From Clytia hemisphaerica (lineage: Eukaryota), in contig NW_027104472.1 in assembly GCF_902728285.1 (NCBI RefSeq), forward strand, positions 935,681 through 999,680: a DNA stretch of 64,000 bases, read 5' to 3'. The notes beneath the pieces are model-generated. The model was given only the letters and a program-made list of their open reading frames with translations. It did not search any database and was not told the DNA's origin. Positions within the stretch are counted from its first letter, which is position 1; every line of letters starts with the position of its first letter. This document shows, one piece after another, positions 832 to 19,440 of the stretch. The translations under genes and the position numbers were made by a program.

Positions 832-1759
832 GTACGTCACATTTTCAGTGACATAAATCAGCTTAGTACAACGGTTCCTTATTGAGCATTTTTGAATGGT
901 CTTTTTCCTCATACAACATTTTGTTGAGTGGTGGTAACTGTGTTGACGTTGTGGAAGCTGTGATGGCTGAGCCTGATGATACGGTATTGGAGATGCGAAC
1001 CAATCCATCACCTATGAATTACTTGTATAATTAATGCAACACTAAGAAAATATTGACACAATTGTTTGTAAATCTTGCAAGTTTATAAACAGATATTTTG
1101 ATAAGTTAAATGGTTACGACTGAATTGTGAAGTGTTGGATTGCATGTTTCAAATATTCTTTTATTGATTGCTTGATAATATCCAAGATATGGTGAACATA
1201 GCAGTGGTAATCACAATGATATTCATAGAGCAGAATAATTGTAAGGCATTTGAGTTGGGAAGAAAATGTGAATTTATCTTTTGTAATTATAAGGTGACGA
1301 TAGAAATGATTATTGTCTTATGATTATTTTCTACTGCTCCCCAATGATTTCCTCAATTCTAATTCATACATAACACAAATGAGTGACAAATAATTACAAC
1401 AATTTAGCGTTACCAGCAAGTTACTGAAAATTTTAGAAGCCCTGAAACTAGTTCATGACTTAATTTTTTCGGTCCTTTGAACAGGGCTTGAAATAACGGT
1501 CGGACATCGGACATTGTCCCACCCAAATTGCTCCTTGTCCGACCCAAAAATCATATTTTTCAAGCTAAAGCAACCGTGATCTGATCTGACATTTTGTCTT
1601 GTCTAACCCACTATTTTGAGCCTTGTTTGAGTGATTTTTTTTGATTTATTTTCACATTCTTCATTCACATTACTACGTTCTTTTTAGACACGGACAAAAA
1701 TAAAAACAAAAAGATAAAAAACTTTGAAGTAGATTTTTTTCATCTATTATCTGGGCCTT

Positions 1760-1872
1760 ATGTTTGGTGTTTGCAAAATTGATCAATCGATTCCTATCGA
1801 GCATTTGGATTATAAATTCATTGGCTCTTGTAAAGATGTTGAATTGCTTCAGAAACTTGTCAAAATTTTAAG
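1760..1872 (+). CDS. SPAG1: SPAG1 ortholog exon 1 with the start codon (MFGVCKIDQSIPIEHLDYKFIGSCKDVELLQKLVKIL-R)
   Basis: First in-frame ATG after a TAG at 1730. Matches the human SPAG1 N-terminus 'IPIEHLDFKYIEKCSDVKHLEKILCVLR' (remembered, not searched). Donor GT at 1873. Confidence 0.75.
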
Positions 1873-2171
1873 GTATATTGACATTTCATGATTCAATATA
1901 TTTTCAAAATAGTCAGAGCATTCAATGTCAATTGAATATAAAGAATCTGGCTAGGAAAAGCTAGCAAAAAGTATTTTGGGGATAGAAATCCATTGATAAT
2001 CTACAGCTCTTTTATCTGGTCAACATTGAATAGTAATAACCTCCAATATCTTCCACTCTGCTCTCTGACACAAATTCTCTTCACATAATCAAAACGTTTG
2101 GTTATTTTATTGACACCTTGTAGCAATCAAATACATACTAACTTGCAATAATCTTCTTTGTTTTGTTTCAG

Positions 2172-2246
2172 GTCTGGCGAAGAAGGAATATATCCAGATT
2201 TGACTCATTTTGCAGAAGAACAATTGAGAAAGTTCAGCCCCAAAAA
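2172..2246 (+). CDS. SPAG1: SPAG1 exon 2 (SGEEGIYPDLTHFAEEQLRKFSPK)
   Basis: cag acceptor at 2169-2171 and phase continuity (AG+G=Arg). Matches human 'SGEEGYYPELTEFCEKHLQALAP'. Donor aa|gtaact. Confidence 0.7.
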
Positions 2247-2285
2247 GTAACTTTTTTCTCTATTTTGATTAAAAATCAATATGAA

Positions 2286-2786
2286 CAGGGCTCGAAATAG
2301 CGGTCGGACATCGGACATTGTCCGACCCAATTGCTGAAATGTCCGACCCAAATCGATTCTAGTCGGACATCATGTCCGACCCAATTACTTTCGGTGCCTT
2401 CAAAAAATTTGTCAGATGCGTTGTGAAATTTCCAAAAGAAATATTATAATTTACATAGAATTAGTAACTTCTTTATTTACACACAAAAACTCTCAAAGTT
2501 GCGATCATTAGTGTTAGATATTAATTTTGTGTGATGCTTTTTCTCAACAAATGAAAGCATGCTTCAAGTAAAAATCATGGGCTTCTGACCATTAATTGGC
2601 ATTTTTTTAGCTTCTTCGTGATCAATGTAAAATTCTATCAGAAGCTTGTATTATATTTGAAATATACCCCACAATCGGACATGTCCGACCCATTTTACTT
2701 TAAAAGCCTTAGGACATGTCCGACCCAAATCAATTTTTGATCAGACAATGTGTCCGACCACCTAAATATCGTTATTTCGAGCCCTG
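2286..2786. mobile_element. MITE (about 500 bp). TIR 'ACAGGGCTCGAAATA(G/A)CG' with internal 'gtcggacat/gtccgaccc' repeats. Partial second copy at 1481-1560.
   Basis: Terminal inverted repeats are read directly from the sequence. Flanking 'atga' on both sides. Confidence 0.7.
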
Positions 2787-3429
2787 TATGAAACCATAAC
2801 CTATCGCTTTTGCAACTCTAAAATACAAGAAAAATTTCCATGTTGAGATTTTCTTTCCTTGAATTATCTTGTTGTCTTCTGCTCCAAGGTTTATTTAAGC
2901 TCAACCACTGCCTTTCTAATTCAGATTTACTTGCAACAGCAAAAAATTCTGGGTTCCATAGTACAATAAACACTTTGACATCAGCAAAAGCCAAATTTAC
3001 GTCAACATGTTTGCGTCGGTAATAGCCGAATGCCAACATGAATTAGAATGGCTGAACCAGTGTAGAGCATATCTTCATGTTTGGCACCTTTCTTTTATAA
3101 GAATATACTTTATAAGTATATTGGCCGAAAAATGAAGAATATGCTAAGAATACCACCATCATGGAATTTGACAACTGAACCTAAGAATTCCATTTTCGGG
3201 CATTTTACCTGTAATTTGCTAATTATTCCCCAGCAATGCTATAAAAAATTTTTTGTTTCAGGTATGCATTGCATGCTAGATTCAGGGTAGGTTTGGATCC
3301 TAACCTAGAATACTGTAAGAGTTCTTCAGGAAGATTTTTTTTAACAAAATGTTAAGAATACCATAATGAAATGGAAAAACACAATTTTTATAATATGAAG
3401 CGTGTATAAAAGAATTTCTTCATTTTCAG

Positions 3430-3514
3430 TCCTCTATTGGAGAAAGTCAATCCGGAGAAATCAACTTCTGAACTTGGGAATGAAGAGCAACAAAATATTG
3501 TCAACGACTTAAAG
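3430..3514 (+). CDS. SPAG1: SPAG1 exon 3 (N-PLLEKVNPEKSTSELGNEEQQNIVNDLK)
   Basis: ttttcag acceptor and gtaggt donor. Phase is consistent. A missed exon between 2247 and 3429 cannot be excluded. Confidence 0.55.
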
Positions 3515-3727
3515 GTAGGTATAGTTCCACCAATCAGATGCAATTCTCATTCCTATTTCATTTTATGACAACATGCTAGCCTGGCACAAATGTTTGTGAA
3601 TTTGATAGATTTTTTGGAAATTATCTGTCAAAAATAGTGTTTCAACGTGTGTAATGGAAAAGGTAAAGACAGGTACAGGTAAAGCCAGGTCAAAAACAAG
3701 TAACTCTTTTTTTGTTTGATTTAACAG

Positions 3728-3829
3728 GGGTTTACCAAAGACACAAAGACTTTACAGAATGGAAATAAAGATAATCTGCCACCTGTTCGAAATTCAAAGA
3801 CCTTAAATGTAGATGCTGACAAAGAAAAC
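3728..3829 (+). CDS. SPAG1: SPAG1 exon 4 (GFTKDTKTLQNGNKDNLPPVRNSKTLNVDADKEN)
   Basis: The 'DNLPPVR' motif is conserved in human SPAG1. aacag acceptor and gtgag donor. Confidence 0.7.
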
Positions 3830-4257
3830 GTGAGATTTTTTGATTAAATTTATGAACAAACCTGATGACAAACAATCTGAAACATAGGACCTAATTTACA
3901 TTTTGAGATTTGAAATCAGAGCAAAACTGATTATGTGATTGCCGCAGGTTGTTAATTTTTTTACTTCCAAAAATCTGCAGTGTAAAATTGCACAAGCGAG
4001 GCGAGCTTTGAGCTGTATGAGTATGACAGGTAAAAGAGAAGTCAGACAGGTGCTGTTATTGTTTGGGCAAACTTTGTCTCTGCACCATCAACTTTGCTGT
4101 ACTTTAGTCTGAATTTGCTTTAATCGAAAAAATATAGTCACTTCGTCAAAAATTGTGTCACCACCAGGCTCAATTGGATTTGAGTAACTCATTTATTACC
4201 CCCAATGAGTTTACTGCTTACCTATGACCTCATTTTCCAATTTTACACTTTGTTTAG

Positions 4258-4459
4258 AAACCTGAAGTAAATAAAAAGAGCGACAACAAAAGGGTGACAC
4301 CACGAAGTTATGATGAGTGGAGTAAACTTGATAAGGAAATTGAAAATTCAACAAATGAAGACGACATAGCATCATCAAAAGGAGCCAAAGCTAAAATGAA
4401 TGATACTGGAAAAGGCTCCTTGAAACCAGACGAGATGATTGGAAAATTAAATACAAAAG
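4258..4459 (+). CDS. SPAG1: SPAG1 exon 5 (KPEVNKKSDNKRVTPRSYDEWSKLDKEIEN...GKLNTK)
   Basis: 'PRSYDEWSKLD' matches the 'PRDYAEWDKFD' motif typical of SPAG1/RPAP3. tttag acceptor and gtatgt donor. Confidence 0.8.
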
Positions 4460-4710
4460 GTATGTGGAGAGGAATATAGCTATTGCTTTCATGTTATCAA
4501 CTTGACTGTTTCAAATTTCAAAAAATAAGGTCGCAAGATTTCTCTTTGAATCTCAGAACAAAACTTTTGAACTCAACCATGTATTTTTGGACTCGAATAT
4601 TATCCATTGAGTGATGTAAAAATCATTTTCGCAGTACCTTTTTATCAGAAGTTGTAAATTTTCTCCTTTTCGTAACATGAAAATTCAGTCACCATTTTCA
4701 AATCTTTCAG

Positions 4711-4947
4711 ATCTAACCATTGAAGAACTGGCAGAGCAAGCTGAGAAAGAAAAGAACAAAGGAAACGAAGCATTCCGGTCTGGAGATTACAAAGAAGCCC
4801 TTGTCTATTATAACAGGAGTATTGAATTATCGCCAGCTCCTGCTGTTCACAACAACCGAGCAATGGCTTATATTAAATTAGAAGAATATGAAAAAGCAAT
4901 CATAGATTGTAATTGTGTGTTGAAGGATGAGTCAAACAATATCAAAG
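4711..4947 (+). CDS. SPAG1: SPAG1 exon 6, TPR block 1 (DLTIEELAEQAEKEKNKGNEAFRSGDYKEALVYYNRSIEL...CVLKDESNNIK)
   Basis: Canonical TPR sequence, close to human 'EKEKGNEAFNSGDYEEAVMYYTRSI'. GT-AG boundaries and phase 1 continuity. Confidence 0.85.
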
Positions 4948-5298
4948 GTGATTTTAAAGTGCTACATACTTTTTGTTGTTTCACCATTTCTTAGAGTCAA
5001 TGTCTAATACGTTGATGGTTCAGTGAAAAATTCCACGGGACTACAAATTTTAGTTCCTTTAATATAACAATGTTTACTGGCCTATTTCGATTTTTGTATG
5101 TGTTATTGGTATATGTAAATTAAACTAACACTTTACCTCGGGCTATTCGTTTTAGACTTGAAATGGATTCTTGTTGTAGACTGGTCCTTTCTCCAATATT
5201 GACTATCTTTGTAACCCTTTCATTCCCATGCTGTTGGAGATCTAAAGAAGTTTCTGTTAACCTCACCAACATTTTATTTTTATTGTTTTTTATTTCAG

Positions 5299-5405
5299 CA
5301 TTTCTCAGACGTGGTTTAGCATACCAAGCTCTGAAGAAGTTGGATCTGGCTTTGAAAGACTTTACAATGGTCGTGGAAATAGAGCCTAAGAATAAACGGG
5401 GGAAG
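5299..5405 (+). CDS. SPAG1: SPAG1 exon 7, TPR continuation (AFLRRGLAYQALKKLDLALKDFTMVVEIEPKNKRGK)
   Basis: Matches human 'ALLRRATTYKHQNKLREAREDLKKVLDVEPDN'. tttcag acceptor and gtttgt donor. Confidence 0.85.
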
Positions 5406-6093
5406 GTTTGTGTAGCTTTAACTTGCTTAAGTTTAATACACCAATCAACTCTTTTTGCGAATTACTTAGTTTGATTTAGCAGTAGGCTCACCTTGCAAAT
5501 CCTACCATTGTAACACGCATGCGTAATTTGTCGTTCTTTTAAACCGTAGTTAACTCCCGTGATAAACAAAGAGGATTGAATCCTTAAGAGTGGTACAGTC
5601 ACTTTCGGTCAAGGTTATGGACGGCGAAATTTGTCGTTCTTTATGAGATTTGTCGTTCGTTTTGTCTATTTTTAGTAACGCAGGATTTGTTAGATAGGAC
5701 CCCTCTAGAGCCTACAGTATTATATGAAACACCCAAAGTCCTTTTCCAGTCCAGTCGAAACATTGGTTAATATAGAAGAAATGAAATGATATGAATTGGT
5801 CGATCTTTCTATTTAATTTCTAAATCATCACTAAGAAAGTGAAATTGAAAATTCTAAAAGCATTACTTTATCTATACAAGCTCAGTAAAAAAGTTAGAAA
5901 ATTTATGAGATCCACCCAAGGGAATACAAATGATTATCATTAATCTTTTTGATAATTTGAATTTTTAGTTTCTCGAAGATGCACTTTTTCAGAATTTTTT
6001 TCTTCTATATTTGATAAAACACCTAACCACTTCACTATTGTGGTAATTGAACTATTGTGGTAACTTTAAATTGAATCTGAAATTTCCTTTTAG

Positions 6094-6125
6094 GAGCTGT
6101 ACGAATCGGTTTATAAAGATTTGGA
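6094..6125 (+). CDS. SPAG1: SPAG1 exon 8, short (ELYESVYKDL-E)
   Basis: ttttag acceptor and gtaagt donor. Fits human 'TLSEVERDLK'. Phase 2 links to the next exon. Confidence 0.6.
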
Positions 6126-6596
6126 GTAAGTTTTTTAAGAGCTTTTGAATCTTTATAAAAGTAAAGACACTCACTTCAATCATTCAAAGGCAGTTGTAAT
6201 GTGATGACAGAAAATTTTCCTCTTTCCCCCTTTTTGGAATCTTCCTTTTGTAAAATTTATTCAGGTTTCCAGATTGGAAAAGTGACATAATCTATTTCTG
6301 ATTATCATTTCATGATAATCTTTTTATGAATTCACATGTCGCTACCGTCGAGGCAAAAGATCCAATCTCAAAATAAGTGTCTCAGAAAACTTCTTTTTTT
6401 TACTTTGCTAACTTAAAGATTGGAGAGATTGACCCTTTTCTCTCGGCACCTTTTCCACTCCAAGAAAAGGGCAAATGTTACAACTTTGAGTTCGAAAAGC
6501 AAACTAGTCCTAGCTTTCTCAGACACTAATTTTGAGATTGGATCTTTTCCTCGACAGCAGATTCCAAATGTAATTTTTGTTTGAAATTCTTCATAG

Positions 6597-6925
6597 AAAA
6601 CAAAAAGATAGCGGTGCAAAGAAGAAGGGAGGTGGGAAACGCTTAGTGGTGGAAGAAATTGACTCCACTCAAGACGAAGGCGATAGTAAAACAACTGAAC
6701 CAATGAAAAAGTCGCCTGGCAATCGCATTGTCATCGAAGAAGTTGATAGTGTTAGTGCACCTGTGCAAGAAGTTTCTCAAGGCCCTATCAAACCTGCTGA
6801 AGAAGCACCTGAGACTGTGGAGGTTAAAGAGCAACAACAAATACAAGAACCAACCTTAGAATCAACAGCAAGTACGGGTGGAATTGAAACTCAGGACAAT
6901 ATTATGAACCCGCCCTCTTCTGAAG
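6597..6925 (+). CDS. SPAG1: SPAG1 exon 9, acidic linker (EKQKDSGAKKKGGGKRLVVEEIDSTQDEGDSK...NPPSSE)
   Basis: 'KRLVVEEIDSTQDEGDSK' resembles human 'KRMVIQEIENSEDEEGK'. catag acceptor and gtatat donor. Confidence 0.8.
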
Positions 6926-7483
6926 GTATATTTATCAACCAGAATCTGTTTTTGTGGTTTATCAGCGCTTTTTTTGTGCCTGGGGTACAAAAGGATCTCC
7001 TGGAGCAAGGAACTAGACTTACAATTTAATAGGTGCAATGAGACGATAAACTGGCCTAGATATATTTTTCGTACAGGTGCATCTATTTTACTGAAAGAAC
7101 TGTTACTTTTACTGCAGCTGTTGTCTACCCCTCTGCTTTAAACTCTATCAAGGCCTACTCATTACCATCACAACTAACACATTGGCATTCACACTAATTG
7201 TAGTTGATGGAGCTTTTAAACATTCTACCTGGTCTTTAATATATAATTATTATATACATTTATCCGCAGACACGTGTTTCATCCTTCCCAGGACTCATCA
7301 GTGCGGCTCGGGTAAGCGAGCATAGATTGTTGTCACCAGAGTGCTCAAAACACTAAGTGTTGAGCTTCGCATTATCGCTTGTGGTGAACGGAGAAGCAGA
7401 GCTTGCTCCTCAACAGAGTCTATAGAGTGCTTAAAGAACCAAAGTTCTGAGCGTAAATACTTATTATATATCTATGTCTTCAG

Positions 7484-7636
7484 GTACCACTCCAGCACCA
7501 CCACCACCTGTTGTTTATAAAGAATTGCCACAAGATGCATTGAAATGGAAGAACGAAGGGAATGATCTCTACAAGAACGGGCAATACCAAGAAGCGTACC
7601 AGAAATACACTTTTGCTATACAAATTCTTATGGATG
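7484..7636 (+). CDS. SPAG1: SPAG1 exon 10, TPR block 2 start (GTTPAPPPPVVYKELPQDALKWKNEGNDLYKNGQYQEAYQKYTFAIQILMD)
   Basis: TPR sequence with a GT-AG intron. Confidence 0.85.
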
Positions 7637-8049
7637 GTAAGTGTTTTTTTATTCAATCTGTTTTTCAAAGGACTCTCTTCATCTGTCTTCATTAATAAAA
7701 TCTTGTGTGTTTTATCAATCAATCGATGCGATTACTGACTTATGATTTTGTGACTGTCACTATCTACAAAAGGTTATTTCCCCCCCAAAAATCAAATTTA
7801 CGAGGGACCTAAAAAATCGTATAATGGGCAAAAGCCACGTAATGATTGAGCTGGTGAAGCAAATTAGAAAATAAATTTTCCTTTCAAAAGAATGCGAAAT
7901 TACGATACAAGAATCAATAAAAGGCCCTTTTTTTGTCAGAGTGCAAAAATTAAGTTAAACAATTTTAAAGTCAAGGTGCCAAAACTGACTAGGTAGATTT
8001 TACTTCAAAAATTTTTAAAAATCTTATTCTTACTTACTTTCTCATATAG

Positions 8050-8221
8050 ACGTGACGGGGTATAAAACAGCATTGAGTAGTCTCTTCAATAACCGGGCCA
8101 TTTGTCAGTTGAAGTCTGGAAACTGTTCAGAGTGCATCAAAGATTGTACGAAATCTCTTAAATATCTTGCCAACATCAAAGCTATCCAGAGAAGGGCCAC
8201 GGCTTACGAAACCCTAGAAAA
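8050..8221 (+). CDS. SPAG1: SPAG1 exon 11 (DVTGYKTALSSLFNNRAICQLKSGNCSECIKDCTKSLKYLANIKAIQRRATAYETLEK)
   Basis: Strongly matches human 'SNRAACYLKEGNCSGCIQDCNRALELHP...LLRRAMAYETLEQ'. Confidence 0.85.
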
Positions 8222-8790
8222 GTAAGCTTTATTTTAGAATATATCCGCTCTTTTAATACTGAAATTGATTTTCTCCCATTTTTTTTTACTCCCGAAAGGT
8301 CAGGAAAGGTACTTTTACTCAAAAATGAGAAAAACCTTTCGTAATTTTCAGCCTTTTACGTGTAAGTCAACCAATCAAAATATCCGTGTATATGTTTATT
8401 CCAACTAAATACACCTTTGTCATCTTTTCTTAGGTAAGACCAATTCAAGAAGTCTTTTTCTACGGACACTATAGACCCAAACTGAAAATCTAATTGCTCA
8501 ATGTAGCCCACATTTTTTGAAAAGCTTTGGTTACTCCTCCAAGTTGTCGAGGAGTAAACGCCGACTTTAAAAACTGCAATGTTTTCGCAAGTGAAACATC
8601 TTTTTCATAGCGGTTCGGACTTCACTTTCTATACTGTCAATCAGGCTTTAAAATCTTTGATCCTGTCCATCGATCAACGTTTCCTGTATCCCACTTTGTA
8701 TTCTTCCAGAACTTAGTGTAAATGATGTTTTACTTTATTTTAATTTTTACCGGTCGATCCTTTTTTGGATTTTTTCTTTATTTTTTTCAG

Positions 8791-8868
8791 ATATAAGGAC
8801 GCTTATGCTGACTTCCAGATTGTTTACTCAAGGACACGCGACCCTAAAGTTTCTCAAGCTATGTCAAG
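8791..8868 (+). CDS. SPAG1: SPAG1 exon 12 (K-YKDAYADFQIVYSRTRDPKVSQAMS-R)
   Basis: Matches human 'YGKAYVDYKTVLQID...ANDSVNR'. tttcag acceptor and gtaagt donor. Confidence 0.8.
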
Positions 8869-9109
8869 GTAAGTGCTCCCTGATTAATGGACCCGGTTGT
8901 GAAAATGAGGATAGAAAACAAAGAAAATGATGTAAGATTAACTAGTCTGAGGTTCTGAAGTTTAATCATTTTTTAAGTGAAATATTATTACGATTCCAAG
9001 GTAAATTTTAATCACTTTCTTCACCAACATTTAAGCTTTAAAGAGCTAGCCTAAAACCAAGTCTCAGTTATAATTCGATGGTTTCAGTCCTTTGCTCTCT
9101 CAATGGTAG

Positions 9110-9245
9110 GATATCAAATCATTTAAAATCGGACTACGGACGAGACTGGCATGATAAATTACCTGCAAGAGACGCTCTCGATTGGAATGATGCACCCGCT
9201 TCTGCCATAACATCTCCACCGGTGAAAAGTTCTGTCCAAGAAGAG
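9110..9245 (+). CDS. SPAG1: SPAG1 exon 13 (ISNHLKSDYGRDWHDKLPARDALDWNDAPASAITSPPVKSSVQEE)
   Basis: An acceptor at 9108-9109 is forced, because the alternative upstream AG gives an in-frame stop. 'YGRDWHDKL' resembles human 'DGPNWREKL'. Confidence 0.7.
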
Positions 9246-9639
9246 GTTAGTGAATATACATACATGTGTCGCTCTTTAATTCGATTTTCAAGGTGGAATC
9301 AATCGTTTTTTCCTCGAATAAGGGAGTGTACCGAATAATACAGAACGTCGTTTATGAGTGTTTCTTTTTGACGGTGGCTTTTAATATCATCGAATATTAA
9401 AAAAGTATAAAAACGCAGAATTAAAAATTAGAAATTCGTTTTTCATTCGTTTTTAGAAGAGGAAAGGCAAACTTTGTTATTTAAATCTTTCAATTGCGTT
9501 CAGTGGCTTAAGAGTAGCGAAATGTTAAAATTCACTTTTGAAAGTACCCAAAATCACACCAATGGCAGATACTCCTGCTGACCGCTCCTAACTATTCATT
9601 TAACTATTCATTGTAGCTGTTGATGTGTTTTTGTTACAG

Positions 9640-9891
9640 GAAAACACTAAGCAAGCCTCTACTGTGGAAGATCAAAGTCCGGCATTGGTGAAACAGGCAA
9701 ACAATAATATCGCCTCGCAAACCAAACCTGCTGTCGCCAAGGAAGAGAAAAAACCTGAAATAAAACCAGTCGAGGTGAAACACAAAGTGATAGACCAAAA
9801 ACCTGGAGAGAAACCTCAACCAAAACAAGAGAAGACGATACAAGAGCAGTTTGTGGAAACAAAAGAAAAAGGAAATTCCTTTGTCAAACAG
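9640..9891 (+). CDS. SPAG1: SPAG1 exon 14, Lys/Pro-rich linker and TPR block 3 start (ENTKQASTVEDQ...QFVETKEKGNSFVKQ)
   Basis: gttacag acceptor and gtaata donor. Ends with the TPR start motif 'KEKGNxxFKQ'. Confidence 0.8.
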
Positions 9892-10379
9892 GTAATACTT
9901 TTATAAAGAGATCAGGGATGATTTTTTGTAGATTTTCTTCTTTGTCTTGTTGGCCCAGCGCTAAGCGAGTGGGCCTTTCATTTGCAACGTTCTGTTCGTG
10001 TGTACGTGTGTCTGTCCGTCCGTTTTGGTAGAAACGGCGCTTAAAACCAGTAACACACTTTTTGCCGTCTGGACAGGGAAAAGCTTGCTAAAGTCGGATA
10101 CTGGCTATAAAAGATATATTTTCTGATTCCGCGCTCCTTCAAAACAATTTTGAAAACAAAACAAGATGGCGGTCGAAGCGAGGAGGTTGATTCATACTTT
10201 CTTGAACATTTTCTTTGCTTTAGTAGTCGAGAGATTTTCAAACCAAAGAAATTTTGTAAAGATTTTTCTTTATAAACCTTTTTCAACATTCTGCCATTTC
10301 TTATGGTCTTTGCTCAAGTTTTCATAAAGTTTTATGAGTGAAAATTCTACCTTAAATCACTTTCATTTTTAGTTTCTTG

Positions 10380-11110
10380 TTTTCAAAAAGACTTCATTTT
10401 TAGGAAAAAATGGCATCTGATATAGAAATAAATAAACTGAAATGCAGCTCATGTGTAAATTTGAATAAGATTGGAACATTTTTCTTGATGCTACAGAAGA
10501 AAACAGTCACTTCTGGATCTGTCGCTGTTAACAACGGTCAGTCAGTACAGTGGTGGGACGTGGTATGATTTTCAAACCCAACACATAATTATTTCAAGTA
10601 AACTGATTCTGGAATTTGGTAATAGACACTAAAATGGAGCTCATGTGTAAATTGGAACAAGATTGGAACTTTTTCCATGATGCTTCGCGTGCGTGAAAAT
10701 GATTCTTTCTGGATCTGTCTCGTTTGACGAAAGGTGCGATGGCTTGATTTTTCAAACTCGACACAGAATTATTTCAAATAAGCTGATTATGGAATATGTT
10801 AATGGAGACTAAAATGCAGCTCATGTGAACATTTGAACAAGATTGGGACTTTTTTCATGATTCTACACATTAAATAAAATGGTCATTTCTGGATCTGTCG
10901 CATTAAAACGGTCGGTCGGTTTCAAACTCGACTCACATCGATCACATAATTATTTAAAGTATATAAACTGATTCTGGAATCTGTTAATGAACACTTAAAT
11001 GCAGCTCATGGGTAAATTTGAACTAGATTGAAACATTTTTCATGGTTGCAATGCATGAACAGTGAAAATGGTGGATCTGTCACATTAATTGTTAACTCGA
11101 ACATTAATTG
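10380..11110. repeat. Intronic satellite: about 4 tandem copies of a unit of about 185 bp ('gcagctcatgtgtaaatttgaa...')
   Basis: The motif recurs at 10444, 10638, 10816 and 11003. Confidence 0.75.
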
Positions 11111-11800
11111 AATTTTATTAGCCTGGATATGCAGACCGTAAACTATTTCACACTCTAGTTTTTTTAAGATCATTTTTCTGGTTTACGGTCTGGTCCAACT
11201 AACATACCTGCAGGGATATTAAAGCGCCCACTCACTAAGCAGAATATTTGCCAGATTTTTTTATATTTTTCCAGTTTTTCTATGGGTGCGCATAATTTAT
11301 GGAAAAAGCTGACCTTGTGAAAAAAGATAAGCGAATGAAAATGAAAACACAGGTTCATTTCTAAAGAAAATGGCCGCTGGAAAGTAGCCTTTATAAAATG
11401 TGGCTGATGTTTTGATATATATAGTTTAAAGTAGTTTTGAAAGTTTTTTGAGTTTGTGAAAGAGGTTTCATGGCAAGTTAATTATGTGTGTCTGCCTGGG
11501 TTTTCAAAGTTTTGATAGTCTGTCAAACAAGGGTTCACTCAAAGGCAGTATCAAACAAACTGTACCCAGCTTTTTTAGTTACACCGGACTCTAAAATTTT
11601 AGAAACTTTGTATTGTTTTTTTTTCTGAAATTTTGAGTCTGGATACCCAGGCTAGAATTTTATTGGAAAGTTGAATGTAGTTGAAGACATTTTCGCTGCT
11701 AAGGCCTGGTAAAATTTTTTATTGGCCAAAGACTGACGTTACAGGCAAAACTGTAAAGGCAAAAAATGGGTAAAAAAATTAACGATTTTTGAAACTCGTA

Positions 11801-12874
11801 CTCTTGGGTACCTAATAGCTGCCCCCCCCCGCAAATTAATTTTTCGAAAATAATTTTCTACCCAGGACATTCTTATTCCAACCCCCCTGCTTATTGATCT
11901 TTGCGAAAATGTTTTTAATAGTTCCCTCTTTTGTCCTAATTCTGCTGTATTACATGTTTTTTTATAAGCATAATCGCACGATGGGTTATTTTTTCTTATT
12001 TGGCGCGCCCTCAAAGAGAGCAATTAATCGTTAATTGCATCCTGTAGAGAGCAATTAATCGTTAATCACACTCTCCAATGCGGCGCCAATGTTTACAAAA
12101 TTGATTTTATTGTTTTTTCTTACATTTTTTTGTATCGAACGTTTTAATTGCATTCGAAATTTATTTTGTGAGAAAGAAAATCAATAATCAACAATAAAAG
12201 AAAGACATAGAGAGAAGAGAAAAATGTAAAACTCTCAGTGTAATTTCTGTAATTTACTTTCCTAAATGGGAAAAAGTAGTGAAAGCCATTGTGCGATTAG
12301 CTCGTAATCACATAATAACTCGTACAATTCGAAAATTGCACTCGTGATTTTTTTGTTTCGAATTTTCCTCGTCCTTTCGGACTCGGAATATTAATAACAA
12401 AAAAATCACTCGTGCAATTATATTCGAATTGCACTCGTTATCATGTGATTACATATACTAACAACGTTTATAAGCATACCTCAAGACCTAAATTTGTCTA
12501 AAAAATAAGCATATTACTGAGCTTGCTTTTGAGGTGTGTAAGTGAAAATTTTTTTTTCTATTAGAAAACGTAATGACAAATCTTTGTGTCATTACTTATT
12601 ATCCTCATGTATAGCAATGGCAGATTTTGGAAAAATTGGAGACTCGAATTTTTCGGAAAAATAAGCATATGATAAACATACTAAGTCTAAAATATCTCTA
12701 AGCATAACTGAGCTTGTTTCCCAAAAAACATATGCTTATAAAAAAAACATGTAGCCTCCTTTTCAAAAGTTTTCCACCCAGGACATTTTTATTTCAACCC
12801 CGCCACTTATTAAGTTTTGAGATTTTTTCCAACCTCCCCCCCCCAAAACCCCCCAGCTATTAGGTACCCGAGGA
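11801..12874. mobile_element. About 1.07 kb non-autonomous TIR element in SPAG1 intron 14. TIR 'CTCTTGGGTACCTAATAGCTGCCCCCCC' with internal palindromes (caattaacgattaatc).
   Basis: Inverted ends lie at 11801-11830 and 12845-12874. The poly-C plus 'ttattaattttcgaaaa' motif is shared with the 49218 family. Confidence 0.65.
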
Positions 12875-13459
12875 GAGTATTCAACCGGATGAGCCTTATT
12901 CGCCTGTGTAGTCCCGGTTGGTAGGGGACCATTCAATAAAATTTCAAGCGTCTAACCAATGAGAAGTACCGCGGTTATTTTGAAAAATGTTTTCCTGTCT
13001 TCACTTTGATCCATGTCAACGGGGTCATACATTTGCTGTTTTGCACGCTCGATTTCAACACGTTACTTTTCGCTGGGCCTTCACGCCCAACGGGCTTCTT
13101 GTTTTCTTCTTCATTTTTGCCATCATTTTTCATGTTTAAGGTTATACAAAAATTCATTTTGAGGTTTGCCAAATACAATATAACTTCAATAGGAGACGCT
13201 GGCATGATAAAAGATGTATGTGTCTGACAACTAGGCTTTACAGAATTCATGTTTAGGGTTTGCTAAACCTAAGCCTATCAACCCTAGCGGCGCGGTCAGG
13301 TTTTTAGGAGACTAGTAACAAAAATACAAAAAAATATTTTCGACAAAGTCATGGAAACATATTTTTCCTTTTCATCTCAGGTTTCCTAAAATGTCGACTG
13401 CGAGCTATATGTTTGATAGATGTATTCGCATTCTAGCCTATTTATCCTATTTTCTTCAG

Positions 13460-13567
13460 GCCAAATACAGTGAAGCGATCCCCTTTTACACACAGTGTAT
13501 ATCACTGTTACCGTCAGAAGTACCTAGCTACACCAATCGTGCGTTGTGCTACTTGAAAGTCAAAGAG
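13460..13567 (+). CDS. SPAG1: SPAG1 exon 15 (AKYSEAIPFYTQCISLLPSEVPSYTNRALCYLKVKE)
   Basis: Matches human 'YKDALSKYSECLKINNKECAIYTNRALCYLKL'. cttcag acceptor and gtaaag donor. Confidence 0.85.
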
Positions 13568-14035
13568 GTAAAGTTTATACTGATGGGGGGGGGCTAGTGA
13601 TATGTTATTCTCTGCATTACAGTTTTAGAGTGTTTACTTCATGTTTATCGTTTCTACAGACCTGAACACTTTACAGGCGTCCCACATCCACCAAAGACCG
13701 AAAAACTTTCTTGCTATACCAGAAAAGATTTTCCCATAGTTAAGAGAGTTTTTTGGAAGGCCAATCTATGGACTTTTGCCGAAATTTTAGATACCTGGAT
13801 TTTTTTTCTGATTTAAGAAGACCTCCTGAATTATTTGCCACGTTTTCTGACGGTCCCTGCGGAGGCTCGCCGAAATTTCAATAATTCCCTGGAATGTCTA
13901 CAAAATATTATTAACCCCCTGGATTTTTTAAGTTTTTTATGGTACGTCTTGGACCGAAAATCCGACCTGCTTTTTTTCTAGAATAGCGAGCAGCCCATAC
14001 TACTCTTTTAACAATATTCTCTATTCTTTTTGTAG

Positions 14036-14131
14036 GCTAAACCCTTGAAAGCTGTAGAAGATTGTACTCAAGCATTGAAATTGCAACCAGGAAACATCAA
14101 AGCACTTTTCAGAAGGGCGCAAGGTTACAGG
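14036..14131 (+). CDS. SPAG1: SPAG1 exon 16 (AKPLKAVEDCTQALKLQPGNIKALFRRAQGYR)
   Basis: Matches human 'EAKQDCDQALQLADGNVKAFYRRALAHK'. Confidence 0.85.
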
Positions 14132-14392
14132 GTAATATCACTGACCTTTACATATCCCTGGACCAAGCTATATCCGCTTTATTTGATCGGAGTTTTTTTG
14201 GAATTGGTACCCGAGAAGAAGCCATTGCAATGTTAAAAATTAACGTCTAACGGCGCTATATCATCAAAAGTATTCTAGGAAAAGTAGATCTAGCGTTTTC
14301 GATGCATTTTCATTATTGAATAGTGCTGCAATTATGGTAACAATTTCAAAAAAGCTCCGATCAAAGATGGCGGATATAGCGTGATCTAGGGA

Positions 14393-14826
14393 TCATAGTG
14401 TCCTTCAGGGTCTCTTCCCCCCCATACCTAGAATGAAAATTTTCCATTCCCCCCCCCTCATTTTTCCCCACCCTGCCTCCAAAAATTTCTCTGTCCCCCC
14501 CTCAAGCATAAAAAGCTGTAATTTGATGAATGAATGAAAAGGTAGTTCTAATTCAAGAATAAATGGAAAGGATGGTTGTTTTTCAACCGTAATATCGCTG
14601 GTTGAAATTAATGAGAGAAAAACTACATATGCTATACACCAAATTGAGTGATAGTAAAACCAGATGTTTTTCAATTTTGAATTGATTTTGGTAAGTTTTT
14701 CATTTTCCATTCCCCCCCTCGTTTTCCCCCACCCTGGCTTCAAAAAAAATTCTTTCCCCTCTATACGTCCTTTTGACCTCAAAACCCATTTCCCCCCCTG
14801 AATCCAGGGGGGAGGACACTATGGGG
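14393..14826. mobile_element. MITE with TIR 'ATAGTGTCCT(T/C)C...CCCCCC' and an internal duplicated unit, in a SPAG1 intron
   Basis: Inverted ends at 14393 and 14826. The - strand ORF 14405-14782 is an artefact of this repeat. Confidence 0.6.
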
Positions 14827-15329
14827 ATATATAAAGGTCAGTGGGTAATACTACGAAATTTGACTAAAATGTTTAAGGGATTGTCAGACGATTTGAGATC
14901 TTTGTCCTGTAGTCTTCTCTGTATGATCCATCCGAGCCAGAACTAATTGTTTTATCACGCGAGCTTTTCTACATGATAAGGATAATAAGTATAATAATAT
15001 CCAGGCACTCTTCACAGCTTCTCGAAATCCACTTTTAAATATAATACCTTTAGTATACCGACGAATATCATAACATTTTAAAATACTTTAGAATTTCACT
15101 TCTAAGCGAAAATCATTCTTAATCTTCAAATTTTCAGTAAGCTGGATACAGGAACAAACATGTGAAATGGATGAATCCTTAACGGGCAAAGACAGTTGAT
15201 AGGACTGTAACGCCCTACTTCACACATACATTTTCAATAATAAGGATTGTGACGATGTTAGCTTTTAAATTAGTCGTTATAATATTTTATGGGTGAGACT
15301 TTCGAAGTTTGTCTTAATCTTTATTGAAG

Positions 15330-15443
15330 ATGTTGAAAAAATACAAGGAAGCGCTTGGTGACTTGGCGTCCATCTTGAAAGAAGAGCCGAAAAATAAAGC
15401 AGCTCAAAAAGACATGGATGAATGCAAAGACTTGTATAGAACG
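15330..15443 (+). CDS. SPAG1: SPAG1 exon 17 (MLKKYKEALGDLASILKEEPKNKAAQKDMDECKDLYRT)
   Basis: Final TPR helix pair. gaag acceptor and gtatat donor. The - strand ORF 15277-15516 in the track is spurious. Confidence 0.75.
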
Positions 15444-15485
15444 GTATATCTTCGTTCCAACCATTTTTTTCTAAATTAAACTTCC

Positions 15486-15690
15486 TACTGGGTGTCCCAG
15501 AAAAAAGTCCCCCCATTCTTTAACGGTTCATAGAACTCAAGAAATTTCACTTCAAAGAGGGGGACTTTTTCTAGCCTCGTTTTGGCGAAAACTCGCGACC
15601 ACGCCCTTAAAAATGAAAATTTTCAAAAAATGAAAAAAACACCCCCAGATATTCACCCAAGGAACAAAGTCTCTTGGAACACCCGGTAGG
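15486..15690. mobile_element. Small MITE-like inverted repeat (GGGTGTCCCAGAAAAAAGTCCCCC ... GGAACACCC)
   Basis: Approximate inverted termini. Intronic. Confidence 0.4.
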
Positions 15691-15854
15691 TCGCCCACAG
15701 ACTCAATGGTGTGGCTCCACCAAGAAATTCATCAGACTCATATTCTTAGCGTCATCGTGTAGTATAAATCGTTTTCTGAAGTGCCTTAAATATGACCACG
15801 GTTTCTGACTTTACCGAAGAAATTTGATGTTTTATTTAAATTTCGCCATTTTAG

Positions 15855-15947
15855 GAGTTGAGAGAAATGCAAAGCAAAGCACAACAATCGAGTTCAAGTA
15901 CCAAGAAATCTGGAAAGAAAATGAAGATTGAAGAAGTGACATCAGAC
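15855..15947 (+). CDS. SPAG1: SPAG1 exon 18 (ELREMQSKAQQSSSSTKKSGKKMKIEEVTSD)
   Basis: 'KKMKIEEVTSD' resembles human 'RKIEIQEVNEG'. ttttag acceptor and gtaagt donor. Confidence 0.75.
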
Positions 15948-17244
15948 GTAAGTCTTTTTTACTGAATTATTTGATTGGTTTCGAAAGAACCTTCATCTCT
16001 CTGATTCGAACAACTTCTTCCACTTCTGTTTGTCTTTCCAACGAGCACAAAATCGCTACTTAATTCAAATTCTATCAAAAGTTATCGAGGTTTGAAAAAA
16101 ACTGCCAGCTAATTTGAAATAGACTTTTGTACATTTCAAGGAATTTTTCAAAAATTAGTTTGGATAAGTTCGAGCAATTTGAGAAACCTAAAAATACTTA
16201 TTCAATTACTAGTTTAGGTATAAGTACTTTTCTCTTCTTGATTTTTGCATCAACCAAAGTGCTTTTATCTATACATAAAGCTATTAGTTTAAAAGAACTT
16301 CATCGGACAATATGTAATAGTGTTGTGTTAGCAAAGAACTTATTAAATACAAATTGAACTTGAACACACGTAAACTAGTAAATTTGATAAAGTGTAATGT
16401 CGTCTAATGTCCAATGTCTTTCAATCAGAAAAAGATTATAAACCAAGTCCCCATAACTCAAAATCATTGAGTCGAATAAATTTTCTACCCCCTCCCCTCC
16501 CATATTTGAATTTATCTCGAGATATTTTGGTTTAAATATTGAAAATTATCGATATTTTTTGCTGAGTCAGCAGTTTTTCAGCATATTTACCCACCTTAAA
16601 AATGAATTATCTCGAGATTTAGACATAGAAAGTCAACAAACCATACCATTTTTGGATACTACGAATTCAGGGCTATCCAGCCGTGGGAGTGATTTTTTCT
16701 GAAAATGCTTCTAGGAAAATGCTGACGTCATCCCAAAACGTCGATTTTTCGCCTTAAAAATGCCATTTCTCGGCACCAGGTGGTCGAAAGTTAAAAAATA
16801 ACCCCATTTTCTTTATCTACTTTTCAAGCTGAATCAGTTGGTAGCATCAGATATTTGATTTTCAGACTTCGAAAAACCGTTAGTAAGGGACCCTTGATAA
16901 GTTCTATCGATTAACTAAAAATCGATTCACTCGAAAACTGCAGGAGATTCGAAGGGCAAATTTTTTTTGTCAATTCTACACCCTATTAGGAGCATAATAT
17001 CAAAAATTTGCCCTGATCTAAGGGGTGCCCTACGAAGTGACACAATTCACTACCTCGGCCGCTGGTCTACAACGTTTATCTAAGGTTCACAACGTCCATA
17101 TAACGTTAGATGAACGTTCAAACAACGTTGTATGCCGGCTGGGTACTGTGATAAGCTTAAAGAGGCTCACCAAAAAAAACCTATTCAAATAAAACCGGTC
17201 TTTTGTTTTTCTTTTCATTGTACTACTTACTTATTTAACCATAG

Positions 17245-17367
17245 ACATTGGCGAGCAACAAACCGCCCACGAAACAATCAACGAAAAATAAAACATGTCC
17301 TCTAGCCAAAGGATCCACGACGCCAAGCTCCACCAGTAAATCTTCAACGACCAATAGTAATAAAAAG
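17245..17367 (+). CDS. SPAG1: SPAG1 exon 19, Ser/Thr-rich linker (TLASNKPPTKQSTKNK...TNSNKK)
   Basis: catag acceptor and gtttga donor, phase 0. Low-complexity linker. Confidence 0.6.
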
Positions 17368-17895
17368 GTTTGAATATCTTCATCTTAGTGGAAATTTTGA
17401 TCGGCTTCAAATTTTAGTCACTTCTTTTCTTCGAGCCCTATTCAAGTTTTGCTATCCATAAAAGAAATCGTATGACATAAAGCAAGGCGCAATTTTATTT
17501 CGTTTTCCAAATGACTTAAGGCTGAATCTCAAAATTGATACCTTGTTATAACATTTAAAATTTTGCAGTGGTGTTCACCTTTGAAATTAAGATTCGTTTA
17601 TTTAATTCATTAAGATTTCATTTTTCAATGTTTTCCAATGAGAAAATGTTAAAACAAAACAGAATTGAAAGATTTTCTAGGCACTTATTTTGAGATTGAA
17701 CTTATAGACCTATTGCTAATCATGATATGATTTTTACTTAAATAATGAGCGGGAAAAAAAATTATGTATTGACTCCAAAAATAGTGGCAAGGAAATCCAA
17801 CAAAGGTAGGTTGTGGTATTAGCTGGCTCATTGTGATGGGTGTAAATTATTTTCTAAAAATTCCGTCATTTTCTGGAAACTTTTTCATCCCGTAG

Positions 17896-18001
17896 ATAAA
17901 TGCAGTTGAGTTTATGCAAATGTGGAACGGGATCAAATCGGGGAAAAGTTCAGAATACGCAGAAATATTGAGACAAATTGAACCAACAAAATTACCCGAG
18001 T
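17896..18001 (+). CDS. SPAG1: SPAG1 exon 20, RPAP3_C domain start (INAVEFMQMWNGIKSGKSSEYAEILRQIEPTKLPE)
   Basis: Matches human 'NAYEFGQIINALSTRKDKEACAHLLAITAPKDLP'. Donor tgtaagt. Confidence 0.8.
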
Positions 18002-18248
18002 GTAAGTTTAATTTTAGATTTCTCTCATGATAAGTGATCAGACGATTTTGAGAATTTTATATCTTTTCACCATAGTCTTGCCATGTATTAAGAAATTCAG
18101 AATGCTTTGAAGTAGAATATTCATTCGTGAAGTTTCTTTCAAAAGAAAGAAACGTTACTGGTTCAAAGCTGGGAAAGATAAACCATTTCTTGTCTTTTAC
18201 AAGCTAGGTCTCTTTATTTTAACCTTTGTGCCCTTTCATTTTTTTTAG

Positions 18249-18323
18249 TGCTATCCAATAAACTAGATGGAAAAATCTTGGAGAATTTTGTATGGGCAAT
18301 AAGTGATCATTTTACTTCGAAAG
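18249..18323 (+). CDS. SPAG1: SPAG1 exon 21 (LLSNKLDGKILENFVWAISDHFTSK)
   Basis: Matches human 'MFLSNKLEGDTFLLLIQSLK'. ttttttag acceptor and gtaatt donor. Confidence 0.8.
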
Positions 18324-18669
18324 GTAATTTTTCATTACTCTTATGATGATGATGATGTTATACAAGAGCCCGCATGAGATTCTGGCTAGTCAGAGGAACT
18401 GTCTTTTTTATGGAATTCAGTAAATGCGATTTCGTAGTATATAATACAACAGGACGATAACTTCAAAGTCTATCAAATCAAACAATTGAAAAAAAGTAAA
18501 TTTGGGTAGGAAAATAAATCCTTGGAAATGAATATTACTTGACCTTTGAGTTTTATGGTCACTAGACTTTGACAGTTTTTTATCTGTCACCATCATAAAT
18601 AATATAATAAGGCGTTAAGAATCCATGAGCGATATGACCTTTTATAATTTCCCTTCGTTTTTGTTTTAG

Positions 18670-18881
18670 AAAATTACAAATACGGCATGACCTTACTAAA
18701 ATCTATGCATCGCGTCCAACGTTTCTCTACAATGCTTATGTTCCTTGGAACGCAAGAAAAGACTTTACTAAAATCATCAATGGACACTTTGGAAAGCCGT
18801 GCCAAACAAGACGGTTGTGAAAAGACAGTATTTAATGAGATCAGTCAGTTAAGGTCGCAATATCGATGTTCACCCTTGTAA
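18670..18881 (+). CDS. SPAG1: SPAG1 terminal exon with the stop codon (ENYKYGMTLLKSMHRVQRFSTMLMFLGTQEK...QLRSQYRCSPL*)
   Basis: RPAP3_C-like C-terminus; compare human '...KAERFKMMLTLISKGQKELIE...ALKRQYEL'. TAA stop at 18879-18881. Confidence 0.85.
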
Positions 18882-19291
18882 TGAAACTCAAGATATGTGT
18901 GTCTGGTGTTTTAGCTATTTTGCGGCTCCGGACTTTACAGGTTTTGCTATGGTTAGGCAACTTCCGCCATTATGGAATAGCAAGTGGCGTTTGTTTACGC
19001 AAACGTGATTGCGGAATTTACGTAAGTTTTAACTTAGTCAAACCTTGAAAAACCTCCATAATAAAAACTTAAATCAGTCCGGTAGGATAACAAGGCAAAT
19101 AGTGAAGATTTTATGCTGTTGAAAAATTGTATGATGGATGGAATGTGGTGTATTCGATAATAAGTAGTCTTCTAGCACATTGGATAGTGTAGAGAAAAAT
19201 TCACAGTACGCAATATTTAGTTTTCCATTTTCATTTCGAAAGAATAAGAACAGCGGGGTCTGAGCTATAGTTGTCGTAACAAACGTTTTGC

Positions 19292-19440
19292 CCACAGATC
19301 TGTAAAGCCCGAAGGGCTAGATTTGCGGCTTTTATCGAAAAGTGAAGCCTAGGTTTGGAAGGATTTTTGCTTCACTTTTTTTTGCTGGAGAAAGCTTAAA
19401 GTTGCCTATCTAGCCCTTCGGGCTTTACAGATATCTGTGG
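19292..19440. mobile_element. hAT-like MITE (149 bp). TIR 'CACAGATCTGTAAAGCCCGAAGGGCTAG'. 8-bp TSD GTTTTGCC.
   Basis: Inverted ends and identical 8-mer flanks at 19284-19291 and 19441-19448. Confidence 0.75.

What the first reader, a model, noticed from the sequence alone, without database searches (positions are those of the whole stretch)
1760..18881. Complete SPAG1 (sperm-associated antigen 1) ortholog: about 22 exons, three TPR blocks plus an RPAP3_C domain
The exon chain reproduces the human SPAG1 architecture segment by segment: an N-terminal 'IEHLD(Y/F)K(F/Y)I...SGEEG(I/Y)YP(D/E)LT' motif, the DNLPPVR and P-R-x-Y-x-E-W-x-K-(F/L)-D motifs, three TPR blocks, and an RPAP3_C tail. Three TPR blocks rather than two distinguish SPAG1 from its paralog RPAP3. 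SPAG1 is an R2TP-like co-chaperone component and an axonemal dynein assembly factor. The predicted product is about 1000 aa.
Basis: partly seen in the sequence, partly recalled or inferred. Interest (0 to 1): 0.5.

Follow-up and report, generated by a model that had tools for sequence, protein, structure and literature searches.

The report
Intact SPAG1 (DNAAF13) gene, cnidarian-like genome

Summary
The finding is confirmed. On the + strand, window 1760-18881 carries 22 exons joined by 21 canonical GT-AG introns. They give an uninterrupted 3000-nt reading frame and a 999-aa product.

- **Family match.** Full-length human SPAG1 (PDB 9hb4_G) scores E = 1e-114, 388 bits. Human RPAP3 scores 4.6e-42, 148 bits. 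Every species-named protein among the 120 listed database hits is a SPAG1 or SPAG1-like protein. The top hits that carry a species name are cnidarian.
- **Domains.** Pfam finds TPR repeats and a full-length C-terminal RPAP3_C domain (72.8 bits, cut-off 23).
- **Quoted motifs.** All are present and align with human SPAG1: IPIEHLDYKFI, SGEEGIYPDLT, DNLPPVR and PRSYDEWSKLD.
- **TPR blocks.** There are three, and each keeps the K-N-N-K-R carboxylate clamp.
- **Exon structure.** Fifteen of the 21 introns lie at exactly the same codon and phase as in the annotated Rhopilema esculentum SPAG1-like gene.
- **Weak point.** Only the exon 9/10 junction, in an unconserved linker, remains uncertain.

The best database relative is 50% identical, so this exact ortholog is not in the protein collection searched. 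It is a routine new member of a well-known family, and interest is low.

The parts
1760..1872 (+). Exon 1 (ATG at 1760; aa 1-38; holds IPIEHLDYKFI)
   Evidence: 113 nt, the same length and phase as Rhopilema exon 1.
2172..2246 (+). Exon 2 (SGEEGIYPDLT motif)
   Evidence: 75 nt, identical to Rhopilema exon 2.
3430..3514 (+). Exon 3
   Evidence: 85 nt, identical to Rhopilema exon 3.
3728..3829 (+). Exon 4 (DNLPPVR motif)
4258..4459 (+). Exon 5 (PRSYDEWSKLD motif)
   Evidence: The donor position is shared with Rhopilema.
4711..4947 (+). Exon 6 (TPR block 1, first part)
   Evidence: 237 nt, identical to the Rhopilema exon.
5299..5405 (+). Exon 7 (TPR block 1, last repeat)
6094..6125 (+). Exon 8, a 32-nt micro-exon (ELYESVYKDLE)
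   Evidence: 9 of 11 residues match transcript-derived P0001. Acceptor TTTTAG, donor GTAAGT.
6597..6925 (+). Exon 9 (acidic/basic linker with KRLVVEEID and NRIVIEEVD). The 3' end is the least certain boundary.
   Evidence: The donor AAG|GTATAT at 6925 is preferred to 6871 and 6877 on splice-site quality.
7484..7636 (+). Exon 10 (start of TPR block 2). An alternative acceptor lies at 7496.
   Evidence: The donor position is shared with Rhopilema.
8050..8221 (+). Exon 11 (TPR block 2)
   Evidence: 172 nt, identical to the Rhopilema exon.
8791..8868 (+). Exon 12 (end of TPR block 2)
9110..9245 (+). Exon 13
9640..9891 (+). Exon 14 (linker and start of TPR block 3). An acceptor at 9652 scores equally.
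   Evidence: The donor position is shared with Rhopilema.
13460..13567 (+). Exon 15 (TPR block 3)
   Evidence: 108 nt, identical to the Rhopilema exon.
14036..14131 (+). Exon 16 (TPR block 3)
15330..15443 (+). Exon 17 (end of TPR block 3)
   Evidence: 114 nt, identical to the Rhopilema exon.
15855..15947 (+). Exon 18. KKMKIEEVT (15915-15941) aligns with the PIH1D2-CS-binding strand of human SPAG1 (residues 752-762).
   Evidence: PMC13002889.
17245..17367 (+). Exon 19 (Ser/Thr-rich linker)
   Evidence: The donor position is shared with Rhopilema.
17896..18001 (+). Exon 20 (start of RPAP3_C domain)
   Evidence: 106 nt, identical to the Rhopilema exon.
18249..18323 (+). Exon 21 (RPAP3_C)
   Evidence: 75 nt, identical to the Rhopilema exon.
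18670..18881 (+). Exon 22 (end of RPAP3_C; stop codon at 18879-18881)
19060..19065 (+). AATAAA, a candidate polyadenylation signal 179 nt after the stop codon
   Evidence: Read directly from the sequence. Its use is not tested.

Best explanation
Window 1760-18881 (+) is an intact protein-coding gene, the ortholog of SPAG1 (DNAAF13), in a genome whose closest named relatives at this locus are medusozoan cnidarians. The 999-aa product has these parts, in order:

- a SPAG1-specific N-terminal segment (aa 1-62);
- TPR block 1;
- a charged linker;
- TPR block 2;
- a second linker;
- TPR block 3;
- a short basic-hydrophobic strand (KKMKIEEVT);
- a C-terminal RPAP3_C domain.

By orthology with the human protein it most likely acts as the adaptor of an R2TP-like (R2SP-type) co-chaperone. 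The three TPR blocks would capture the EEVD tails of HSP70 and HSP90. The strand after TPR3 would bind the CS domain of a PIH-family partner such as PIH1D2. The RPAP3_C domain would dock on the RUVBL1/RUVBL2 AAA+ ring. Together these would bring chaperones and clients, notably axonemal dynein arm subunits, together for assembly in the cytoplasm.

Shown here: gene structure, domain content, orthology, and conservation of the clamp and strand residues. Inferred: every binding event and the role in cilia.
For: - **Gene model.** 22 exons, 21 GT-AG introns and an open 3000-nt CDS.
- **Exon boundaries.** 15 of 21 intron positions and phases are identical to the annotated Rhopilema esculentum SPAG1-like gene. 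Nine exons have identical lengths.
- **Collinearity.** The product is collinear with transcript-derived P0001, at 50% BLASTP identity to the draft and 61% in the MAFFT alignment.
- **Family scores.** Human SPAG1 scores 388 bits (E = 1e-114) and RPAP3 scores 148 bits.
- **Single domains.** SPAG1 TPR1 (7bev) scores 97 bits on aa 203-319. SPAG1 TPR3 (6i57) scores 74 bits on aa 678-793.
- **C-terminal domain.** Pfam RPAP3_C scores 72.8 bits over profile positions 3-92 of 92.
- **Clamp residues.** K207/N211/N241/K271/R275, K450/N454/N493/K522/R526 and K682/N686/N717/K749/R753 are all present. They are invariant or nearly invariant across ten SPAG1 sequences.
- **PIH1D2 contact.** KKMKIEEVT aligns with human RRKIEIQEV, the segment with NMR contacts to PIH1D2_CS.
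- **RUVBL2 contact.** R947 and F948 are invariant at the position of RPAP3 R623 and F624. R623 is needed for RUVBL2 binding.
Against: - No transcript or protein evidence from this organism was available. Expression, the exact exon 9/10 junction and the UTRs are unverified.
- No RFX X-box-like motif was found near the start codon. The two matches in the window are at 27 kb and 32 kb, no more than chance gives. There is therefore no cis-regulatory hint of ciliary expression.
- Two of the four RPAP3 residues needed for RUVBL2 binding differ here (M626 to T, S632 to G). They also vary in human SPAG1, whose isolated C-terminal domain binds RUVBL1/2 weakly.
- Partner genes (PIH1D2, RUVBL1/2) could not be looked for in this genome.
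Confidence: 0.93

Rival explanations
1. The gene is the ortholog of RPAP3, the canonical R2TP subunit, rather than of SPAG1.
For: RPAP3 shares TPR domains, the NLPPIR and Y-x-x-W-x-K-L-D motifs and the RPAP3_C domain. It is the second-best PDB hit (148 bits).
Against: SPAG1 scores 388 bits against 148. The product has three TPR blocks where RPAP3 has two. The first roughly 60 residues (IPIEHLDYKFI...SGEEGIYPDLT) align with SPAG1, and the RPAP3 alignment only starts at model aa 80. All named top hits are SPAG1.
Confidence: 0.02
2. It is a recently inactivated or unexpressed copy (a pseudogene) that still looks intact.
For: No expression data were available, and no exact or near-identical protein is in the collection searched (best hit 50% identity).
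Against: All 22 exons are open. All 21 introns have GT-AG ends with polypyrimidine tracts. Functionally critical residues are retained: 15 clamp residues, R947 and F948. The dispersed repeats found all lie in introns.
Confidence: 0.03
3. The model fuses two adjacent genes, for example a TPR gene and a separate RPAP3_C gene, across the 3.6-kb intron 14.
For: Intron 14 (9892-13459) is much longer than the others and is full of repeats.
Against: The single transcript contig behind P0001 spans the whole protein without a break. Intron 14 splits TPR block 3 at the same codon and phase as in Rhopilema.
Confidence: 0.01

Closest known systems
Human SPAG1 / DNAAF13 (926 aa; PDB 9hb4 chain G, 7bev TPR1, 6i57 TPR3)
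   Same: The domain order is the same: N-terminal segment, TPR1, linker, TPR2, linker, TPR3, PIH-binding strand, RPAP3_C. The alignment covers nearly the whole length (E = 1e-114). The N-terminal motifs, the clamp residues and the KIExxEV strand are shared.
   Different: Overall identity is about 31-32%. The linkers are unrelated in sequence. This protein has a second G-[KN]-R-h-x-I-E-E-V-D-S copy after TPR1 that vertebrates lack. It has a 2-residue insertion in TPR3 shared with Hydra and P0001.
Cnidarian SPAG1-like proteins (Rhopilema esculentum P0005, Hydra vulgaris P0007/P0008, transcript-derived P0001)
   Same: These are the best database matches at 36-50% identity. Fifteen of 21 intron positions are shared with the Rhopilema gene.
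   Different: The Rhopilema protein is 1467 aa and carries an internal duplication of the TPR2-linker-TPR3 module. Its exon lengths 172/81/~274-301/108/90 occur twice. The gene here has the plain three-TPR form.
RPAP3 (R2TP subunit; PDB 6fo1 chain G)
   Same: It is a paralog with TPR domains that bind HSP70/HSP90, a PIH-binding linker and an RPAP3_C domain that binds RUVBL2. The NLPP[IV]R and Y-x-x-W-x-K-L-D motifs are also present in it.
   Different: It has two TPR domains instead of three, no SPAG1 N-terminal segment, and a much weaker match (148 bits).

Membership tests
SPAG1 / DNAAF13 | Three separate TPR domains, where RPAP3 has two | tested here: met
   The TPR blocks lie at about aa 203-319, 443-562 and 678-793. 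The definition comes from PMC5974087 and PMC13002889.
SPAG1 / DNAAF13 | C-terminal RPAP3_C (RUVBL1/2-binding) domain | tested here: met
   Pfam PF13877 scores 72.8 bits against a cut-off of 23, on aa 870-960, covering profile positions 3-92 of 92.
SPAG1 / DNAAF13 | SPAG1-specific N-terminal segment (IPIEHLD[YF]K[YF]I ... LRSGEEGxYPxL), absent from RPAP3 | tested here: met
   It aligns with human SPAG1 from residue 3. I11, P12, L16, D17, S39, E42, G43, Y45 and P46 are invariant in 10 SPAG1 sequences. The RPAP3 alignment starts only at model aa 80.
SPAG1 / DNAAF13 | Closer to SPAG1 than to the paralog RPAP3 in sequence searches | tested here: met
   Against human proteins the scores are 388 and 148 bits. 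All named proteins among the best 120 hits are SPAG1. No explicit tree with cnidarian RPAP3 was built.
SPAG1 / DNAAF13 | Carboxylate-clamp residues (K-N-N-K-R) for EEVD binding in the TPR domains | tested here: met
   All 15 residues are present and invariant or nearly invariant in alignment A1. The clamp positions were assigned from my own knowledge of the Hop TPR1 clamp (K8, N12, N43, K73, R77). Binding itself was not tested.
SPAG1 / DNAAF13 | PIH1D2-CS-binding strand downstream of TPR3 (human residues 752-762) | tested here: inconclusive
   KKMKIEEVT (aa 818-826) aligns with human RRKIEIQEV, and K819 is invariant. The binding function is known only for the human protein (PMC13002889).
SPAG1 / DNAAF13 | Gene structure shared with annotated orthologs | tested here: met
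   15 of 21 introns lie at the identical codon position and phase as in the Rhopilema esculentum SPAG1-like gene.
SPAG1 / DNAAF13 | Requirement for axonemal dynein arm assembly, and complex formation with RUVBL1/2 and a PIH protein | not testable with these tools
   This needs expression, interaction and knock-down experiments in the source organism.
RPAP3 | Two TPR domains directly after a short N-terminus, and best reciprocal match to RPAP3 | tested here: not met
   The product has three TPR blocks and an extra N-terminal segment. RPAP3 is only the second-best match at 148 bits.

The most novel reading that the evidence does not exclude
The protein carries three copies of one short motif, basic residues followed by h-x-h-E-E-[VI]-[DT]. 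KRLVVEEID and NRIVIEEVD follow TPR1, and KKMKIEEVT follows TPR3. Only the third corresponds to the experimentally mapped PIH1D2-CS-binding strand of human SPAG1.

If all three are CS-domain docking strands, one SPAG1 molecule could scaffold up to three PIH/CS co-chaperones at once. Candidates are PIH1D2, DNAAF2 and DNAAF6. The second copy is present in several invertebrate sequences and lost in vertebrates, which would mark an ancestral extra docking site. Alternatively, the internal IEEVD could act as a pseudo-ligand for the protein's own TPR domains.
Probability: 0.12. Interest if true: 0.4.

Novelty: new member of a known kind. Interest (0 to 1): 0.1.

Why it matters
It matters mainly as correct annotation. 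The window holds a complete ortholog of a primary-ciliary-dyskinesia gene in an apparently unannotated cnidarian-like genome, and its exon-intron structure is largely shared with a jellyfish ortholog. It adds one sequence to the evidence that the three-TPR SPAG1 architecture, the clamp residues and the PIH-binding strand predate the cnidarian-bilaterian split. It opens no new question on its own.

Tried and rejected
- **Ciliary promoter element.** I searched for an RFX X-box-like element (GTNRCCNNRGYAAC, 1 mismatch). The window has two matches, at 27 kb and 32 kb, none near the gene, and chance gives 2.7.
- **RNA genes.** An Rfam scan at gathering thresholds and a tRNA scan of the whole window found nothing, so no intronic RNA genes from known families were detected.
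- **Hydra locus.** Look-ups of the Hydra SPAG1 isoforms P0007 and P0008, wanted for an intron comparison, were not on record. Rhopilema was used instead.
- **Alternative junctions.**
  - 4463|4649 or 4652 for intron 5 was rejected. It scores lower, and the Rhopilema intron coincides with 4459|4711.
  - 6871 or 6877 with 7496 for intron 9 fits the shorter P0001 linker slightly better. Its splice sites are poorer than 6925|7484. This stays open.
- **Nested genes.** I looked in the long intron 14 and found only a roughly 180-bp tandem repeat and short dispersed or palindromic repeats.
- **Not attempted.** I did not build an explicit SPAG1/RPAP3 tree, because no cnidarian RPAP3 sequences were fetched. 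I judged it unnecessary given the score gap and the architecture.


Full report
**Observation**

The window is AT-rich (about 35% G+C) and has the short open stretches typical of a eukaryotic gene with introns. I concatenated the obvious open segments on the + strand between 1760 and 18881 and searched with that 905-aa draft. It hit TPR families and RPAP3_C in Pfam. It also hit 239 database proteins. The best was P0001 (953 aa, 50% identity, 100% coverage, E = 1.4e-259). Next came unnamed or cnidarian proteins, then SPAG1 or SPAG1-like proteins of cnidarians, molluscs, echinoderms, amphioxus and vertebrates. P0001 comes from a 3093-nt intron-free contig of a public sequencing run. It therefore stands in for a spliced transcript of a related species.

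**Gene model**

tblastn with P0001, P0003 and the Rhopilema protein P0005 placed all matching segments on the + strand in collinear order. For each junction I listed every GT (or GC) donor and AG acceptor that kept the frame open. I scored the joined peptide against the corresponding stretch of P0001. For 20 junctions the best solution was clear and had a good polypyrimidine tract.

The exception is the exon 9/10 junction, which lies in an unconserved linker. There I chose 6925|7484 (AAG|GTATAT ... TCTTCAG|G) on splice-site quality. The alternatives are 6871 or 6877 paired with 7496.

The final model has 22 exons, 21 GT-AG introns and a 3000-nt CDS, and it encodes 999 aa with no internal stop. 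The ATG at 1760 is preceded by an in-frame stop at 1730-1732. It aligns with the first residue of P0001 and P0004. The stop codon ends at 18881. An AATAAA lies at 19060-19065.

**Independent support for the exon structure**

I fetched the annotated Rhopilema esculentum SPAG1-like locus (L002) and mapped its protein back onto the DNA exon by exon. Nine exons have exactly the same length as in my model: 113, 75, 85, 237, 172, 108, 114, 106 and 75 nt. When the junctions are projected through BLASTP alignments, 15 of my 21 introns fall at exactly the same codon position and phase as a Rhopilema intron. The other six lie in poorly conserved linkers or inside a region that is one 768-nt exon in Rhopilema. 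The 32-nt exon 8 (ELYESVYKDLE) is supported by P0001 (ELYETVYKELE).

**Identity**

- Pfam on the final product gives TPR_1 at 135.9 bits and a full-length RPAP3_C domain at 72.8 bits (cut-off 23), on aa 870-960.
- Against all PDB sequences the best match is full-length human SPAG1 (9hb4_G) at E = 1e-114 and 388 bits. It aligns in two stretches, aa 3-582 and 656-971.
- Human RPAP3 (6fo1_G) is second at 148 bits.
- The isolated SPAG1 TPR1 (7bev) and TPR3 (6i57) domains match aa 203-319 and 678-793.
The RPAP3 alignment starts only at model residue 80, so the first roughly 60 residues are specific to SPAG1.
- A ten-sequence alignment from cnidarians to primates is collinear and has no conserved block missing from the model.

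The literature defines SPAG1 by three TPR domains plus RPAP3_C, against two TPR domains in RPAP3 (PMC5974087; PMC13002889).

**Likely mechanism (by orthology)**

Human SPAG1, together with PIH1D2 and RUVBL1/RUVBL2, forms the R2SP co-chaperone. It binds HSP70 and HSP90 and is listed as dynein assembly factor DNAAF13. [quoted passage not shown]

In the product here:

- Each of the three TPR blocks keeps the five carboxylate-clamp residues, and these are invariant or nearly so across the alignment.
- KKMKIEEVT (aa 818-826, exon 18) aligns with the human segment 752-762, whose residues contact the PIH1D2 CS domain in NMR.
- R947 and F948 are invariant and correspond to RPAP3 R623 and F624. R623 is needed for RUVBL2 binding. 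The positions of M626 and S632 differ, as they partly do in human SPAG1.

These are sequence-level observations. No binding or expression was tested. No X-box-like promoter element was found near the gene.

**Surroundings**

All dispersed, tandem and palindromic repeats found within the gene lie in introns. No Rfam family or tRNA was detected anywhere in the window. Further downstream the window holds a non-LTR retrotransposon ORF (46203-48125; RVT_1, 121 bits), two copies of an unassigned repeated ORF, and a weak GPCR-like ORF near 59.6 kb.

**Verdict**

The observation and the interpretation are both correct. This is an ordinary, intact SPAG1/DNAAF13 ortholog. Its best named relatives are medusozoan, and it shares a 2-residue TPR3 insertion with Hydra and P0001. 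The source is therefore probably a hydrozoan-like cnidarian, though I could not name the species. No protein more than 50% identical is in the collection searched, so it is a new member of a known family rather than anything new in kind. Interest is low.

Noticed in passing
window 6637-6663, 6721-6747 and 15915-15941 (model aa 332-340, 360-368, 818-826): There are three copies of a basic-hydrophobic-EE[VI][DT] motif: KRLVVEEID, NRIVIEEVD and KKMKIEEVT. The third matches the mapped PIH1D2-binding strand of human SPAG1. The first is conserved in almost all SPAG1 sequences aligned. The second, which contains an internal IEEVD like the HSP70 tail, is present in several invertebrate sequences but not in vertebrates.
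   Followed up: partly
L002 (Rhopilema esculentum, GCA_013076305.1 SWAQ01000448.1), exons at 8228-12517 and 14358-19208: The annotated jellyfish SPAG1-like gene (1467 aa) repeats the exon series 172/81/~274-301/108/90 nt. This is an internal duplication of the TPR2-linker-TPR3 module, giving five TPR blocks. Other top hits are also long (P0002 at 1558 aa, P0009 at 1349 aa). Whether this is real or an assembly or annotation artefact was not checked.
   Followed up: partly
window 10406-11047 (intron 14): A tandem array of about four copies of a roughly 180-185-bp unit, 69-84% identical to the reference copy, lies inside the 3.6-kb intron.
   Followed up: no
window 1478-1548 and 2282-2352: Two copies, 89% identical, of a roughly 72-bp element containing GGTCGGACATCGGACATTGTCC. 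One lies about 210 bp upstream of the start codon and the other in intron 2. It is probably a small dispersed repeat (MITE- or SINE-like).
   Followed up: no
window 6347-6555, 12304-12452 and 19293-19437: These are palindromic or inverted-repeat elements: 74-78% self-complementary in introns 8 and 14, and an 85% complementary 40-nt pair just downstream of the gene. They are consistent with small foldback or MITE-like insertions.
   Followed up: no
window 3094-3420 against 50158-51456 and 54441-54652; 17070-17143 against 28758-28831 and 38289-38360: Intronic segments of the SPAG1 gene are 77-92% identical to sequences elsewhere in the window, on the opposite strand. These are dispersed repeat families.
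   Followed up: no
window 46203-48125 (+): A 640-aa ORF has a reverse-transcriptase domain (RVT_1, 121 bits) and a weak, truncated endonuclease match. It is a non-LTR (LINE-like) retrotransposon copy.
   Followed up: partly
window 30837-31151 (-) and 51536-52114 (-): Two ORFs with closely similar sequence (...ILKSIEEKERIMQNLHKLKRFNEIGGFSITDDFTINERKIIKDMCQKA...). The longer copy, the only one scanned, has no Pfam match. They probably belong to a repeated mobile element. An adjacent ORF at 31504-31977 (-) has a weak PHD-finger match below the Pfam cut-off.
   Followed up: partly
window 59620-59997 (+): An ORF has a weak rhodopsin-type 7TM match (16.9 bits, below the cut-off). It may be the first exon of a GPCR gene.
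   Followed up: no
window 1678-1690: A strong acceptor-like site (ttctttttag|acacgg) lies about 70 nt upstream of the ATG. It could be a 5'-UTR intron acceptor or a spliced-leader trans-splice site, as used in hydrozoans (from my own knowledge). This is untested.
   Followed up: no
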